A stretch of 64,000 nucleotides of DNA from Octopus vulgaris (Eukaryota), in NCBI GenBank assembly GCA_951406725.2, contig OX597820.1:38812001-38876000 (forward strand), in the 5' to 3' direction. The notes below the pieces were generated by a model that worked only from the letters and a program-made list of their open reading frames with translations, did no database searches and was not told where the DNA came from. Position 1 is the first letter of the stretch, and the number at the start of each line of letters is the position of its first letter. The position numbers and the translations under genes are program-made. Shown in pieces: positions 4,521 to 61,830 of the stretch.

Positions 4521-5490
4521 TATATTTATATATGTGTGTGTGTGTATCTGTGTGCGTAATTAAAGAGGAGTGTAAAAATACATTACGAAGGATATATCAT
4601 AAACAATTCATAATTATTTACGAATATATCAATGACGAAACATGCAATCAAAAAGTTTCCTAAAGGAAGTGTGTATAATTACGAACAAATCATAGTTATA
4701 AAGGATAGGGTTCCAGAAATCCTTCTATGTCTAGAAATAGCTGTTAAAACTGCTATAAAGCTACTATAACCACTCATATTTTATCTCTTCACAATCAAGC
4801 TGTCGGCAGGCGGAATGACATTAAATTCAAAACTTAAATAAAAGGTTAAATCTTTGTTGCAATTTCGAAGTTAGCAACCAAAAACGGTTCTACTCTTCTC
4901 TTCAAACATGTTAGGGTTTCTGAGACCCTCTCCCTTATAATTGTGATTTGTTCATAATTATACATATTTAGTTTATGAAAGTTTTTGATTGCATGTTTGG
5001 CCATTGCTATATTAGTAAATGATTATGAATTGTTTATGATATATAGTTCGTATTGTATTTTTACATTCCTCTTCAATTATTTAATTTTTTCACTCATACA
5101 CTGTTTGTCGCCGTTGCTCGATTTACTGGTCTTTTCTTATCTGAGCATGATGTTGGAATTCAGAATTTTATGTGTAGATAGAGGTTGACACATTATTCTT
5201 GCCGGTCGGAAGCATGGAAGCTCCAACCTATGGTTTTTGTATCTACAGGAATGAAGATAAGATTGGAACCGTTTTTGGTTCCTAACTTCGGAACTGCAAT
5301 AAAGAATTAGCCTTTTAGTTAAGTTTTGAATTTTATGTGATGTCGCCCGCCGACAGCCTAATTGTGAAGCGCTAAAATATGAGTAGTTATTGTGACTTTA
5401 TAGCGGTTTTGACTGCTATTTCTAGACATGTAAGGGTTTCTGAAACCCACACCGTTATAATTGTCATTTGTTCATAATCATATACACTTC

Positions 5491-13049: not shown

Positions 13050-13990
13050 GCACCACTGTGGTCTTGCTGATTCCCTCAGTCTGGGGTGTTTCACATCGCC
13101 ACTCCTGTATGTGCCTTTGTCCCATCTGTTTACCCATTTGGTATATTAGGGAGTTTGATTCTGCTGCCCCCGTTGGTATCTTCTATCGGGCTGTTGGTTC
13201 ATCTGGTATTGTAGAGATGAGGATATGCTTATTTCATTCTTGAAGACAACTACTTCCACCTTATGCAAATTTCTTGAACTGTGGGTCTTTGAACCCTAGG
13301 CTATTGCAGAAGCTAATCCTGAATTTTTTAGATTGGGTGGATAGTTCCTTTGATACAATTCAATCTCGGCTAGTTCGGGAATTTGTATAAATTCAACGCC
13401 AAAATTAGCTTTTAGCCCTTCTAGAGATTTCCATATGTAGATTCTTACATATCTGTCGCACCTTCGCCCCAGGGAGTAAAGTTGCAGTTCTTTCAGACTC
13501 TGCCTGTAGCTCATCCGCTGCGATGTTTCACTTTTTGTAATGTAGCGGCGTTGGATTGCTTCAAGCTGCACCGTTAGTTTGGCATTATGTGGTGACAATA
13601 ACTGGGAGTAATAGTCCAAGCGGCTGAGGATAACGGTTCTCCAAAGAACCAACAGTTTCTTGGTCTCGTGTTTGGAGGGCCATAGTGTCCCCCTGCTAGT
13701 TGTCTGCCATCTTGATAATGTGCATATGAAATAAAGCATCATTGCACATACTAATTCCTAAGTCTTTCACTGTCTGTAACTCTGGGATTCCAGTACCTTC
13801 GGCTCCTGCAAATGCAAGATGTAGTGAATTCGTGAGTTGATAGTGCAGTGCTTGTAATTTTCCAGCATTAAACTACGTGTTTACTTCGGCCGAATTACAT
13901 ATCGAATTCAGGTCCCGCTATAAGGTTGCGCCATCTTAATTTTTTATTACCTTTCATATTTTTGTTTCTAGTGACAGTGACTCTCCGAGT
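13050..13990 (-). mobile_element. CR1/L2-like LINE 3' remnant
   Basis: LWRTVILSRLDYYSQLLSPH...QLEAIQRRYITK...MSYRQSLKELQLYSLGRRCDRY..IYIWK matches the CR1-type post-RT motifs LDYCS.LWSP, LE.IQR and SY.ERL..L.L.SL.RR. Confidence 0.85.
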
Positions 13991-27323: not shown

Positions 27324-27380
<57 letters not shown>

Positions 27381-27818
27381 CACCATCACCATCATCGTCA
27401 TCTTCTCCTTCTCCTTCTCCTTCTTCTTCTTCTTCTTCTTCTTCTTCTTCTTCTTCTTCTTCTTCTCCACCCCCTACCCCTTAAGTTTGTCACTAATGTT
27501 TTTTAGTATAACACCTACGCTAATTCTATAAACAAGCCTGTCAATATAAGTATTCTCCTGAATTGAACTGAGACTGCCAGCCGCCACTGACCATTCAAAA
27601 TACGACCATCAGGGCACTCCCAGATTCTCCCACCCCCTTTCCTCACCAGCCTTCCCTCTACTACCCTACCAAGAACTCACAACTACCTCGAACACACAAG
27701 TGCAAACAAGGGAGTCAGAGAAAGGCAGAATGCCACTTAAATCTGAACACTACTATAGAAATATTCTTTTAAAAAAACTTTTCTTCTAATTTTTCTAAAT
27801 TTAATTATTTAATCGTTA

Positions 27819-27856
27819 CAGTTGAAAAGGTCTCAAAATGACCGAAACCGGTACTG
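27819..27856 (+). ncRNA. Minimal hammerhead ribozyme with U3-A8 compensatory core
   Basis: CAG-TTGAAAA-GGTC-tcaaaat-GACC-GAAA-CCGG-TA-CTG. The core has C3U plus G8A, helix III is the palindrome ACCGGT, and the cleavage site is GUA. Confidence 0.75.
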
Positions 27857-27909
27857 AAATGTTCACTATAAAATTATTTTACCATTTTCTATTTTTCACT
27901 TGTTTTTTC

Positions 27910-27991
<82 letters not shown>

Positions 27992-36333: not shown

Positions 36334-37092
36334 TCATCGACGTTCGAAAATGAACTCATTATAATGCTGCCATTTTGATTCTTCCGTGTCGAGTCCTGGC
36401 TTGATTTCTCCGGCACTGTTGGTACCGGAGCCGCAAGAACCAGCCAAGTAAAACCCCTGTTCTACAAGCATGTCAAATGCCTGTTCCAAGAAAGTGTGTT
36501 TGAGAAAAAATCGAGACGTATACCGGTCTTCTGTTCCGCGATCTGGGTCCCGACTTTCATTCAAAGTATCTTGGAATACCTCTCGACAGAGAGATACCTT
36601 CCCACAGACAATAATTCTGGCAAGCTTTCGGAATTTGACGTCGGCAAGCCCATCCCTTCCAAAGGCAAATGTCCCACGATATCCAACGGTAATGTAGCCA
36701 GGTTGCTTGCCAGTTATCAACCCGTTACAACAAACGTTTGTCGATTGTCCTATGGATTTTGAAACACTTATTGTTGAAAGATTGCGAACCAAGTTAGGCA
36801 GACGGAAATATTCAGCTTCTGTCTTCAGACGATCTTTTTCGTGAAAATTCTCAGGTAGAATCAGTTTTTGATTTCGTAAGTAATCAAGAATGTATCTGAA
36901 AAGCACACCATCGCGATCCAAAAAAAACTTTCCTTTCGAATCTCGTAAAATCGGCGTTTTTCCAGAGTTTGAAAACATCTGTGAAAGTAAAGAATCAGGT
37001 TCTTTCCTTAGTGTATTTAATGTAGTTGTGTAAGACACTCCACCAACATTTAACTCCAAAATTTCAGGAAGATCTGCCGCTTTCTCCGACAT
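36334..37092 (-). CDS. BTB/POZ (T1) domain protein of the KCTD8/12/16 family (invertebrate Ktl/KCTD12-like; BTB + H1, no H2 domain), single coding exon, 252 aa
   Basis: N-terminal BTB signature ILELNVGGVSYTTTLNTL..PDSLLSQMF...DSKGKFFLDRDGVLFRYILDYLR...EAEYFRL. C-terminal H1 domain GYITVGYRGTFAFGRDGLADVKFRKLARIIVCGKV..CREVF..TLNESRDPD...YTSRFFLKHTFLEQAFD. Start context caaccATG, TGA stop, no frameshifts. It is probably co-orthologous to vertebrate KCTD8/12/16, so no single symbol is assigned. Confidence 0.96.
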   Translation of the reverse strand: MSEKAADLPEILELNVGGVSYTTTLNTLRKEPDSLLSQMFSNSGKTPILRDSKGKFFLDRDGVLFRYILDYLRNQKLILPENFHEKDRLKTEAEYFRLPNLVRNLSTISVSKSIGQSTNVCCNGLITGKQPGYITVGYRGTFAFGRDGLADVKFRKLARIIVCGKVSLCREVFQDTLNESRDPDRGTEDRYTSRFFLKHTFLEQAFDMLVEQGFYLAGSCGSGTNSAGEIKPGLDTEESKWQHYNEFIFERR

Positions 37093-37954
37093 GGTTGTCT
37101 GTTTACAGTGGTCTCAGTAAAAGCTGTAGCGATATGGACTTATTAGCTTCCCTGCTCGCAATGTGTTGCCGTTTTATTGTTGTTGTTAACGTAATGAATA
37201 TATGTGTACGTATGTGTGTGTATATAAATGTTCATGTGTATGTTTGTGTACAAATATATTTATATGTAAATACGAACAAATATAAATACGTGAGCGTGTG
37301 TGTGTGTGTGTGTATATATATCTATATACACACACACAAAACTGAAGAAAATATGCGTTTGTTTTTATGTCCAAGTAGTGTGTAACATCAATTATCTCAC
37401 AACAGCAATAAAGAAGATGTAGTATTGACCAGACCGAGTGACTTCACTGAAGTATACTTCTCCGCAGCTATTCTCCGATAGTAGTAATTTTGAACGGATA
37501 TTGGTGAAATTCGTGTGTAAATATTTTTTATGGGAACGTATCTACACACGATCGTATGCATGTAAAATATACACGTCAAATCACATGAAATGGAGAGTAA
37601 ATCAGGAGCAGTTTTCAAGATGTATATGTATTACACATACAGCGATGCGCATACATATGAATGCTATTCACATCGAAGATGATGGACTGACTGACGATGA
37701 TGAACGTTAACTCCAGTGCGTCGATATAATGTCAAACATTAAAACACAAATAAGCTAAAAAAAAAATCTTTCTCTTGATACGGTCCCTACAAAATATTAT
37801 GGTTGAATGAAATCAAAAAACAAAACACCCCAAATAGTTCTCGTTAATAAACAACACTCTCACACACATACACACACGCGCAATAAATTATAAATTATTC
37901 TGTCTTTCCTAGTATGGTTTTCACAGGGTAGAATTTAGTCCTTGTGTTCGCAAC

Positions 37955-54379: not shown

Positions 54380-54991
54380 AATGTTAGTTGATAGTTTCTC
54401 GAAATGGCCAGAAATTTGTAAGTGTTAAAAGCCAACCTCCTCAAATGTGAGACATTTTTTACACGAATTGTTGCAAGATTTGGCATCACAGACAAGATAG
54501 TGTCCAACAATGGAATGCAATTTATTTCATGGGAATTTAAAAAGTTTTGGGAAACGTTCGCGATAGAACATAAAACTACTGCGCCATACCATCCCAGATC
54601 TAATGAACAGACAGAACGCTTTGTCGATACCTTCAAAAGAGCCCTACGTAAATCGCGTAAGGAAGTCACAGATGAGGTAGCTCTACAACAATTTTTAAGA
54701 GTGTACTGTGTAACATCAAATCTGAATATACCAGCAGGAATGTCATCACCAAAGCCAATGTTTGTGTGGAAACTAAAATCAATCTTCGATAAATTGCTAC
54801 CAGGAAAGAAGAGAAAAAGTGCCAAGGAAAACATAGCAGGATTCTTTAAAATTGGTGAACATGTGTTTATGAGGGCATATAAGAATGGAAAGCAGAGTTG
54901 CGAAGATGACGTAATTACCAAATGCATTGGTAAAATGTTGTATTGCGTAAAATATAGAAAACGCATACCAGAAGGACACAGGTGCAACTGA
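54380..54991 (+). pseudogene. Gypsy integrase core (rve) remnant
   Basis: ARFGITDKIVSNNGMQFISWEFKKF...IEHKTTAPYHPRSNEQTERFVDTFKRAL corresponds to FG.P..IVSDNG.QF and APYHP.SNG.AERFV.TFK. The second catalytic Asp is changed to Asn. Confidence 0.9.
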
Positions 54992-59466: not shown

Positions 59467-60320
59467 TATATATATTTATATATATAGTTATCAGGTATAT
59501 TCGGTAGTCAACTGAAATGACGAATTCTTATCGTCCGAAATAATCAACTGATTCATAATTTATCTATATATTTATTCATTTATTTATATTTGGGCTAAAT
59601 ATGGAGGACTTGGCGACTCATGCAGCACTTTCCTGACGCTAAGATGTTAGAGGTATGACGTTGCCAGACAGGATTTCATGCTCAACTACTCAATAATGTT
59701 TGTAGAGTTACAGATTACTATAGCTGTAGCATAAACACCCTGCTTCGGCTGAAGATTACCGCAAGTAAACATGGATGTATATGTGAGAGATATGAAACCA
59801 TTTGCGCCAGGTTTATAGCTCTATAAGGTAATGATGATGGTATGTATATATGTGTCTGTGTGTGTGAGTGAACTACCTATGTATGTGAGTAAACTTTCTG
59901 GTGTATGTTGCGTACCGTTACTAATAAATGAATGAAAAAATGCATTGTAAATATACAGTGACAGATAAAAATGTATACGTATAAGACACAGAGTGTCAGT
60001 AATTCGCACCATTAATGATAAGATTGCTGGGCTTCCCATCTTGACGGTGCTTGCGAAAAACACAGAGAATCGGGCTTCACATATATAAATACATACGTGT
60101 ATGTATATATATATATATATATATACATACTAACATAATACATACATACATGCATACATACAGTTGTGGGCTATGCGATAAGAGGTTCCTTCCCAACCAC
60201 TTCACTCCAGGTTGAGGCCCATTGCGTGGCACCTTGGGCAGATGTTTTCTATACTATAGCCTCGGGCCGAGTAGATTTGATATACATATACATACATACA
60301 TACATATATATCCATTTCAA

Positions 60321-61830
60321 ATTTACAGAAAAACAAAAGACAAAGACAGGTGTATGTTAGTTTAACGTTGGGGAAGGAGAGAAAGTCTTTTTACGATTTG
60401 AGACTACGCTCTTCAATAGAAAAGAAGACGAGGAAATAAATAGAGAGAGAAAAAACTGTGCATAGACACCCCCAACAAAGACAGGTGTCCTAATGAATGA
60501 CCGGTAACGTAGAAAAGGCACGAGACCTGGGTGTCGTTGTCGAGTTTAATGTCTCGGAGGTGCTCCGCGAACCGGTTAACCAAGCGGCGTCCCGTTTGAC
60601 CGATGTACTGAGAAGGACAGAAAGAGATGCACCAAATGACGTTGCTAGAAAAGCATGTATATGAGTCAGTGATATGATAGGGGCGATGATGGTAGTGTTG
60701 GAGTGGTAGGGGTAAGTGCGGCACCGTGGGCGGGAGCACAATAATGACCCAGGTTGGGAGGTGGGGTTGGGGAAGAAACTGGACCAGGAGGTCGCCCAGG
60801 ATGTGGGTTCGTTTGAAGGATGGGAGCGATAGGTTGGGGAAGATTTGTGAAGTGGAGGTCTCGGACCGGAGTCGCCGGAAGGCTCGGAGAATGGTGCGTT
60901 GGAGGGACAGGGTGGAGGGGTGGTAGGTAAGGGGAAACCAGAGACGGGTACAGGGATAGAGTAGAGGCACGGTCTACAGAATGTTCTCTGCCAAGGGAAA
61001 TGTGGAGAGTGGTGAGGGTATATCCACGAAGAATGAAGTGGGGAGCTATGAGTGGAGACTGAGTCTCAAAGACAGCCTGTGCAGACGGAGGTATTGGGAG
61101 TAGGGGATGGAGAGCTTCGTGTGAGTAGGGTGAGAGGAGGAGAATTTGCGGTTTGTGTGTGAGTCGGTATGTTTCGATTAGAGGGCAGAGGGCAGTAGAA
61201 GGAGGTATCTTGACGTTGGAGGAGAGTTTCAGCCCCGTAGAGTTTCACGCTCCACACAGCTACGGCTCTACCCTTGTCAGCCAGTTTTATGAAAATGTAT
61301 TTGCGGCGTCGGAGACATCGAAGAGCTGAGAGTTCAGCTGAGGAGATGTTCAGATGTCGGGGACGCCTGCTAAAGTTAAACCGGTCCACAACACCTTGAC
61401 AAATGCTTGCAAAATGATCGACCGCTTGGAATAGGCCAAGAGCTGGCGTCCGGTGGGATGGACGGCGGCGCAGGTTGGTGAAGCAGTCCTATTCGTTAGA
61501 TGCAGGTGGAGCGTTGTGGAATAGTGAATATAGCCTGACACGGCGCACAAAGATATGAATATTAGCACGAGTCTGAAATTTGTTAGTGGATGGAGTGAAG
61601 GGGATGAACTGCAGGCCCCTATTGAGAAGGGAGCGCCAGAATTGTAACAACAGACTGAAGCGGGGAGGGGTGGATAGGTCAGATGTGGGAGGAGTGGTGC
61701 TGGTAGTCGAAGGATGAGAGGAGAGAGAGGAGGGCTAAATGTGTGGGGTGGAGTGACGGAGGGTTTGGGGTGAAGATGACGGGGAAGCGTATCGGGGAGG
61801 GAGTTGGGTTTAGTGATATCGGGTGTGACA
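60321..61830 (-). mobile_element. Penelope-like element, internally deleted (N-terminal domain, thumb and GIY-YIG; RT core missing)
   Basis: NISSAELSALRCLRRRKYIFIKLADKGRAVAVW (DKG motif) joins almost directly to SQYLRLHRL (cf. SQFLRLRRLCS). This is followed by YTCFSSNVIWCIS..CPSQYIGQTGRRLVNRFAEHLRDIK (GIY-YIG) and a pLTR at 60321-60460. Confidence 0.88.

What the first reader, a model, noticed from the sequence alone, without database searches (positions are those of the whole stretch)
27815..27910. 38-nt hammerhead with natural C3U/G8A double change in the catalytic core
Seen: core UUGAAAA instead of CUGANGA, with all helices intact (CAG/CUG, GGUC/GACC, ACCGGU). It is followed by a T-rich tail and (TA)n. 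Established: C3-G8 form a tertiary Watson-Crick pair in the active hammerhead, and U3-A8 is a known tolerated swap. Inference: the paired change argues for selection on catalysis in the source element and would be missed by standard CUGANGA searches.
Basis: partly seen in the sequence, partly recalled or inferred. Interest (0 to 1): 0.7.

Follow-up and report, generated by a model that had tools for sequence, protein, structure and literature searches.

The report
Penelope-element hammerhead with U-A core pair
This is the small RNA motif, predicted to cut itself slowly as a dimer, that sits at the end of a young, very abundant Penelope-like jumping gene; its U-A core pair is shared by about 3,900 copies and such a swap is already in print, so it is a new example of a known kind.

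Summary
The motif is real (window 27819-27856; 0 hits in 150 simulated windows). It is the pseudo-LTR hammerhead of a 4.4-kb endonuclease-bearing Penelope-like element (RT + C-terminal GIY-YIG, Neptune-like). The window holds a 5'-truncated 540-bp end inside (TA)n. U3/A8 is the family state: 3,937 genomic matches, against 63 U3/G8, 39 C3/A8 and 12 C3/G8. The swap is published as natural (PMC3088659) and in Penelope elements (about 1,300 hits in Schistosoma, PMC4209133); this scan noted it twice before on other DNA. Added here: in related elements positions 3 and 8 always pair (C-G, U-A, A-U, G-C; 27 of 27 hits), and U-A arose at least four times. An old U3.G8 wobble lineage also spread (26 of 57 marked copies). 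Against full activity: about 98% of copies carry A17, which is predicted to trap U3 as G17 traps C3, and none of 30 junction copies starts at the cut site. Cleavage is untested.

The parts
27328..27377 (.). (TA)n microsatellite, 5' part of the insertion target
27376..27917 (+). 5'-truncated copy of the 3' UTR / pseudo-LTR of a 4.4-kb Penelope-like element; short end type, without the 34-nt tail
   Evidence: 98% identical to the unit of L032 over 27376-27937; 99.1-99.3% to 29 genomic copies over 27480-27912; end types
27819..27856 (+). minimal type I hammerhead motif, 38 nt
27822..27828 (+). core positions 3-9 with U3 (27822) and A8 (27827)
   Evidence: family counts
27829..27843 (+). helix II (4 bp, G10.1-C11.1 closing pair) with 7-nt loop
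   Evidence: pair probability 0.96; closing pair A-U, G.U or G-C by subfamily layer
27847..27852 (+). palindromic helix III half, predicted to pair with a second copy
27853..27854 (+). N17 = A and the predicted scissile bond 27853|27854; A17 can pair with U3
   Evidence: standard hammerhead numbering
27814..27861 (+). predicted 4-bp extension of helix I (27814-27817 with 27858-27861)
27857..27910 (+). T-rich end of the pseudo-LTR, between the motif and the element's 3' terminus
   Evidence: shared by family copies
27910..27991 (.). (TA)n microsatellite, 3' part of the insertion target
   Evidence: 28 of 30 loci end in (TA)n

Best explanation
The motif is the pseudo-LTR hammerhead of a young, high-copy Penelope-like retrotransposon, whose U3-A8 pair replaces the usual C3-G8 pair family-wide, and it is predicted to cut slowly and only as a dimer. 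Shown: the element's anatomy, the copy numbers, the family-wide U3/A8 state and the co-variation of positions 3 and 8 in relatives. Inferred: a transcript that runs through a tandem pseudo-LTR-ORF-pseudo-LTR array carries two motifs 4.4 kb apart; their palindromes pair to give helix III of a double hammerhead; U3-A8 stands in for C3-G8 in the active fold; the cut falls after A17. A competing U3-A17 pair likely keeps most molecules uncut, which would fit reverse transcription starting 54-88 nt downstream on RNA that still holds an intact motif. The window copy is a promoter-poor, 5'-truncated fragment in (TA)n and likely has no function of its own.
For: Unit of about 4.4 kb with RT (PF00078, E 3.5e-8), C-terminal GIY-YIG (PF01541, E 3.7e-4, just under the curated cut-off), DKG motif, CxxxxCxxC linker and tandem or inverted ends. 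3,937 U3/A8 matches against 63, 39 and 12 for the other states. Free energy of the double-hammerhead fold is -24.9 kcal/mol with open cores, against -9.8 for one monomer. In 83 related loci from metagenome and genome collections, 27 of 27 plus-strand hits (23 loci) have a Watson-Crick 3-8 pair although both positions were left free: C-G 18 loci, U-A 3, A-U 1, G-C 1. An RT tree of 25 rows needs 4 changes for U-A, and the three closest relatives with a motif are C3-G8. The helix II closing pair is A-U in the old layers, G.U in intermediate ones and G-C in the young one. Published: U3-A8 is natural and active in vitro (PMC3088659, passage); Penelope minimal hammerheads cleave weakly and as dimers (PMC4209133).
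Against: No cleavage assay. U3-A17 is the preferred pair in the monomer (P 0.69) and in the dimer (-27.1 against -24.9 kcal/mol); the analogous C3-G17 pair cuts the rate of minimal hammerheads at least 300-fold (PMC3884650, Discussion). 0 of 30 pseudo-LTR-ORF1 junction copies begin at the predicted cut site, and 28 of 30 extend upstream through the motif. The motif differs between young and old majorities at 4 of 38 columns, no fewer than the downstream flank (5 of 60; upstream 17 of 78), so plain conservation does not single it out. A U3.G8 lineage also transposed. In the anole Poseidon element, catalytic mutants did not affect insertion in vitro (PMC11167929, passage).
Confidence: 0.72

Rival explanations
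1. The motif is catalytically silenced in this family. U3 pairs with A17 and covers the cut site, and the fold is kept only as a structural or protein-binding element of the pseudo-LTR, or by inertia.
For: A17 in about 98% of copies (84 matches with another base, against 3,937). The U3-A17 fold is favoured by about 2.2-2.3 kcal/mol. In the 5 other loci with a non-C3 core, N17 never complements N3, and the two published Schistosoma U3-A8 rows have G17 and U17. No genomic footprint of cleavage.
Against: A terminal A-U pair is weaker than C3-G17, and the folding model omits the tertiary core. All other core bases and the palindrome stay fixed through every subfamily layer. G17 variants of extended hammerheads still cleave (PMC3884650). 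Religation to a circle would also leave intact motifs in genomic copies.
Confidence: 0.2
2. The conserved CAG of helix I is the 3' splice site of a pseudo-LTR intron, as in Drosophila virilis Penelope, so splicing would swap the 5' strand of helix I and switch the ribozyme on or off. This can hold together with the best explanation.
For: Old and young layers both end in TTACAG after a T-rich tract, while the bases just upstream differ. In D. virilis the intron end maps to the 5' end of helix I (PMC4209133).
Against: No contig joint ends at this CAG in 8 laid runs. These runs are contigs whose RNA origin is only a guess, so the test is weak.
Confidence: 0.12
3. A chance look-alike, or a decayed copy of a C3/G8 family with two independent mutations.
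For: Rfam score far under threshold; monomer folding z-score only -1.15.
Against: 1,828 exact-pattern copies, and 99 of the 100 listed are U3/A8. Only 2 of the 12 C3/G8 matches belong to the family. 0 hits in 150 simulated windows. The motif sits at the pseudo-LTR position.
Confidence: 0.01

Closest known systems
U3-A8 minimal hammerheads of Cercyon Penelope-like elements, Schistosoma mansoni (Cervera and de la Pena 2014, PMC4209133)
   Same: Type I minimal motif in the pseudo-LTR, U3-A8 core, palindromic helix III, short helix I, over a thousand mostly solitary copies.
   Different: Here helix II is 4 bp with no extra base between positions 9 and 10.1, the palindrome is 6 nt, copies are very uniform, and N17 is A (G and U in the two published rows).
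Natural U3-A8 hammerheads (Perreault et al. 2011, PMC3088659)
   Same: Same core co-variation, described there as natural and active in vitro.
   Different: That passage does not tie them to Penelope elements; I did not see which N17 they carry.
Hammerheads with a small palindromic helix III in Penelope elements of Drosophila, rotifers, shrimp and mosquito (PMC4209133)
   Same: Short palindromic helix III with a 2-nt centre; dimer-type architecture; in D. virilis also highly uniform copies.
   Different: The D. virilis and shrimp rows shown have C3-G8; the D. virilis intron at helix I was not seen here.
Neptune clade of endonuclease-bearing Penelope-like elements (Craig et al. 2021, PMC8557442)
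   Same: RT then C-terminal GIY-YIG, CX2-5CxxC linker with a long spacer like the Neptune rows, tandem and inverted ends, 30-40 bp tail, microsatellite target.
   Different: Clade placement rests on motifs compared by eye, with no tree against named references.
C3-G17 trapped hammerheads (PMC3884650)
   Same: Position 3 can pair with position 17 and extend helix I over the cut site.
   Different: Here the pair is U3-A17 and it is the natural family state; no paper in my search names it.

Membership tests
Minimal type I hammerhead of Penelope-like elements | Core boxes (C/U)UGAN(G/A)A, GAAA and UH with a Watson-Crick 3-8 pair | tested here: met
Minimal type I hammerhead of Penelope-like elements | Helix II with a G10.1-C11.1 closing pair | tested here: met
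   G-C in the window and in 12 of 30 sampled loci; A-U, G.U or a mismatch in the other 18
Minimal type I hammerhead of Penelope-like elements | Unpaired base between positions 9 and 10.1 (usual, absent in some published rows) | tested here: not met
   A9 is followed directly by G10.1; the shrimp row lacks it too, so it is not required
Minimal type I hammerhead of Penelope-like elements | Palindromic helix III that cannot form in a monomer but can in a dimer | tested here: met
   (computed folds)
Minimal type I hammerhead of Penelope-like elements | Located in the pseudo-LTR of a Penelope-like element | tested here: met
   motifs flank the ORFs 4.4 kb apart in L031 and L032
Minimal type I hammerhead of Penelope-like elements | Self-cleavage after position 17 | not testable with these tools
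   no assay; no footprint in 30 genomic junctions or in contigs of 8 runs
EN+ Penelope-like element | RT with DKG motif followed by a C-terminal GIY-YIG with two cysteines between the half-motifs | tested here: met
   499 homologues at E <= 1e-30 among 7,996 scored candidates
EN+ Penelope-like element | Partial-tandem and inverted insertions, optional 30-40 bp tail | tested here: met
   of 30 loci 16 end short, 12 end after a 34-nt tail, 1 runs on, 1 other
Neptune clade | CX2-5CxxC linker before the endonuclease, long spacer | tested here: met
   one search compared by eye with the supplement rows
Neptune clade | RT phylogeny with named Neptune references | not tested
Naiad/Chlamys | N-terminal GIY-YIG | tested here: not met
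   GIY-YIG at residues 688-775 of 784
Non-LTR retrozyme | Short non-coding monomers in tandem, one hammerhead each | tested here: not met
   the unit is 4.4 kb and coding; separate 359-bp tandem units with a C3-G8 motif exist in the genome

The most novel reading that the evidence does not exclude
A successful retrotransposon lineage has fixed a built-in brake on its ribozyme: U3 switches between pairing with A8 (active) and with A17 (cut site covered), so most transcripts stay whole for reverse transcription and only a fraction is cut, perhaps under the control of the element's own protein. The genome also keeps a record of the route: an old U3.G8 wobble lineage that transposed alongside the U3-A8 one.
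Probability: 0.2. Interest if true: 0.45.

Novelty: new member of a known kind. Interest (0 to 1): 0.22.

Why it matters
The swap itself is known, so the main value is as a clean test case. About 3,900 copies in dated layers show how a ribozyme core and its helix II change in a transposing lineage, with wobble intermediates. The family also gives a natural U3/A17 combination with which to test whether Penelope elements need their ribozyme to cut at all, which is still open (PMC8557442, PMC11167929). In practice, hammerhead searches in Penelope elements should leave the 3-8 pair free: 5 of 23 related loci with a motif were not C-G.

Tried and rejected
Rfam at gathering thresholds: no hit in the window. 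Splice joint at the helix I CAG: none in contigs of 8 of the 24 listed runs; no listed holder is on record as RNA, so nothing is claimed on expression. Cleavage footprint in genomic copies: 0 of 30 junction loci examined, out of 49 matches. The two family copies with C3/G8 (L040, L049) as ancestors: rejected. L040's inverted mate is U3/A8, L049 nests among young copies, and about 0.5 doubles are expected from the single-change counts. Placing the U3.G8 lineage in time: its divergence (5.2%, n 25) is not distinguishable from old U3-A8 copies (5.6%, n 30), and the 119-row tree of short ends is unresolved, so ancestral step or side branch cannot be told. No RT or endonuclease like this family's was found within 1.5 kb of the 30 canonical-core loci fetched, so they could not enter the tree. 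In 12 of the 15 closest metagenome and genome relatives (L141-L152, L205, L221, L222) no convincing motif was found. No stable hairpin after the putative frameshift site. Three papers were not held.

Full report
Observation. The motif lies at window 27819-27856 on the + strand: helix I CAG/CTG, core TTGAAAA (U3 at 27822, A8 at 27827), a 4-bp helix II with a 7-nt loop, GAAA, the palindrome ACCGGT and A17 at 27853. Helix I can extend by 4 bp. Helix III does not form in one molecule (P about 1e-5) but two copies pair through the palindrome (-10.3 kcal/mol). A descriptor that allows any Watson-Crick pair at 3-8 finds this one hit in the window and none in 150 simulated windows. Rfam gives nothing at gathering thresholds and a weak Hammerhead_HH9 match at E 0.042.

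What it belongs to. The 433 bases around the motif had 1,840 first-look candidates in the 2.8-Gb genome, and the 40 scored were 99-100% identical. Tandem copies lie about 4.4 kb apart. [quoted passage not shown] The linker spacing resembles the Neptune rows, not the Nematis rows, of the Craig et al. supplement (by eye). Copies occur as partial tandems and inverted pairs. Of 30 loci, 16 end 54 nt after the predicted cut site, 12 after a further 34-nt tail, 1 runs on into the ORF1 leader and 1 is other; the 28 ends run into (TA)n. These are the described marks of endonuclease-bearing Penelope-like elements (PMC8557442). The window copy is a 5'-truncated end, 27376 to about 27917, between two (TA)n runs. 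So the 'T-rich tail' is the element's end and (TA)n is its target. The host looks like an octopus-type genome; that is my recall of its repeats and was not tested.

Is U3/A8 the family state? Yes. With one relaxed pattern and only positions 3 and 8 changed, the genome holds 3,937 U3/A8, 63 U3/G8, 39 C3/A8 and 12 C3/G8 matches; the reversed controls give 3, 1, 6 and 1. By eye, 62 of the 63, about 31 of the 39 and 2 of the 12 belong to the family. The two C3/G8 copies are not ancestors: one has a U3/A8 inverted mate, the other nests among young copies. Other hammerhead families in this genome keep C3-G8 with the same palindrome (572 matches, control 107).

Signs of selection. First, in 83 loci of related elements from metagenome and genome collections, a descriptor with 3 and 8 free gave 27 plus-strand hits in 23 loci, all Watson-Crick: C-G in 18 loci, U-A in 3, A-U in 1, G-C in 1. 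The minus-strand control gave 6 hits, 3 with C-G that look like inverted copies and 3 with weak stems and no 3-8 pair. Second, an RT tree of these 23 loci, one more from a relaxed scan (L222) and this family needs 4 changes for U-A, forced by well-supported branches, and the three nearest relatives with a motif are C3-G8. Loci without a detected motif were left out, and the root is a midpoint. Third, the helix II closing pair is mostly A-U in the old 36-nt layers, G.U in intermediate layers and G-C in the young 38-nt layer. Against: the motif differs between young and old majorities at 4 of 38 columns, like the downstream flank (5 of 60) though less than the upstream flank (17 of 78).

A wobble lineage. 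A-to-G changes at position 8 (62 family-like) far exceed those at 7 (7) and 9 (16), counted by eye, although in the old layer the three share the same neighbours (p < 1e-6). G8 is linked to a G five bases upstream of helix I: 26 of 57 copies with that marker carry G8, 30 carry A8, 1 carries T8 and none C3. Among fetched copies with a readable marker, 25 of 36 U3.G8 copies have it against 0 of 28 others (p 2e-9). So a source element with U3.G8 transposed. Its age cannot be told from that of old U3-A8 copies (5.2% against 5.6%), so it may be the step from C-G to U-A or a side branch. A U3.G8 row from Saccoglossus is already in the 2014 supplement.

With U at 3 and A at 17, helix I can extend over the cut site. 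That pair has probability 0.69 in the monomer, and the dimer with it is 2.2 kcal/mol more stable (-27.1 against -24.9). A17 is the family state: 84 matches have another base. The analogous C3-G17 pair is held to explain an at least 300-fold loss in minimal hammerheads and an 8- to 100-fold loss in extended ones (PMC3884650). In the 5 other non-C3 loci and the two published Schistosoma U3-A8 rows, N17 never complements N3; the sample is small. The folding model has no tertiary terms, so this is a prediction.

Any sign of cutting? Of 49 copies that run from the pseudo-LTR into the ORF1 leader, I examined 30: 28 extend upstream through the motif, 2 begin downstream of it, and none begins at the cut site. 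All normal 3' ends lie downstream of the site. Inserted copies were therefore made from RNA with an intact motif, either uncut or cut and religated into a circle. This matches the anole Poseidon element, where catalytic mutants did not affect insertion in vitro (PMC11167929). Contigs of 8 public runs show no joint at the helix I CAG and no pile of ends; contigs cannot show RNA ends, and no run is on record as RNA.

Mechanism. Most likely (0.72) two motifs in one tandem transcript pair through their palindromes, U3-A8 replaces C3-G8, and cutting after A17 is slow. Anatomy, copy numbers and co-variation are shown; dimer formation and the U3-A17 competition are computed; cleavage is inferred from published relatives. 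Rivals are a silenced motif (0.2), a splice site at helix I (0.12, not exclusive) and chance or decay (0.01).

What is known, and what I saw of it. PMC4209133 (parts 1-2 of 4 of the text, passages of supplementary file 2; file 1 not searchable; figures not seen) reports U3-A8 in Cercyon elements with about 1,300 hits and low dimer activity. PMC3088659 (passages) reports natural U3-A8 and cites in vitro activity. PMC8557442 (Introduction, passages, supplement rows), PMC11167929 (passages), PMC3884650 (passages, Discussion), PMC6765202 (passages) and bioRxiv 10.64898/2026.07.22.740005 (passages; supplements not seen) give the context. Lunse et al. 2017, Przybilski and Hammann 2007 and Nelson and Uhlenbeck 2008 were not held and are known to me only as citations; the first may well list A3-U8, G3-C8 or U3/A17 variants. 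Searches for U3-A17 and for natural A3-U8, G3-C8 or U3-G8 found no paper naming them in Penelope elements, within a library that lacks most subscription papers. Two earlier notes of this scan describe the same kind of motif in other genomes.

Verdict. Real, well explained, and a new member of a known kind. The residual interest lies in the fixed U3/A17 combination, the U3.G8 lineage and the repeated origin of the swap. Interest 0.22.

Noticed in passing
L032 (minus strand) 5154-5214; same junction in L031 and L033: The full-length element has two frames, a 411-codon ORF1 (from its first ATG) and the RT-endonuclease frame in -1, overlapping at a T TTT TTA heptamer. No stable hairpin follows. 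A frameshift-separated ORF1 is noted for Penelope elements in the Fig. 1 legend of PMC8557442.
   Followed up: partly
L182:1968 and L183:116 (metagenome loci): Hammerhead motifs beside Penelope-type RT genes with A3-U8 and G3-C8 cores, one locus each; L182 is sister to a U3-A8 element in the tree. Not found named as natural variants.
   Followed up: partly
G000:C1:20000778-20006042 (L090-L096), also L105, L106: Tandem units of about 359 bp, each with a canonical C3-G8, C17 hammerhead, partly in inverted arrays: they look like non-LTR retrozymes.
   Followed up: no
L081, L082, L087, L089, L098, L103; L086, L097, L099, L100; L044: At least three further dispersed hammerhead families with C3-G8 and the same ACCGGT palindrome, some with a long helix II and A17.
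   Followed up: no
window 60300-61650, minus strand: Decayed second Penelope-like element of another family (29-35% identity to the RT and endonuclease), with a degenerate hammerhead-like motif near 60416-60385.
   Followed up: partly
window 36334-37113, minus strand: Open frame of 259 codons that reads like a single-exon KCTD8/12/16-type BTB protein (family name recalled, not searched).
   Followed up: no
window 54422-54991 (+) and 13296-13757 (-): Frames that read like an LTR-retrotransposon integrase fragment and a LINE 3' fragment (recalled motifs, not searched).
   Followed up: no
L221, L222, L223; P0029, P0072, P0077, P0078, P0081, P0091: Relatives of this eukaryotic retrotransposon protein sit in records labelled as bacterial genomes or symbionts, likely host DNA in those assemblies.
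   Followed up: no
G000:C10:63476781-63477066: Three copies of the ORF1 leader 131 bp apart, a short tandem derived from the element's junction.
   Followed up: no
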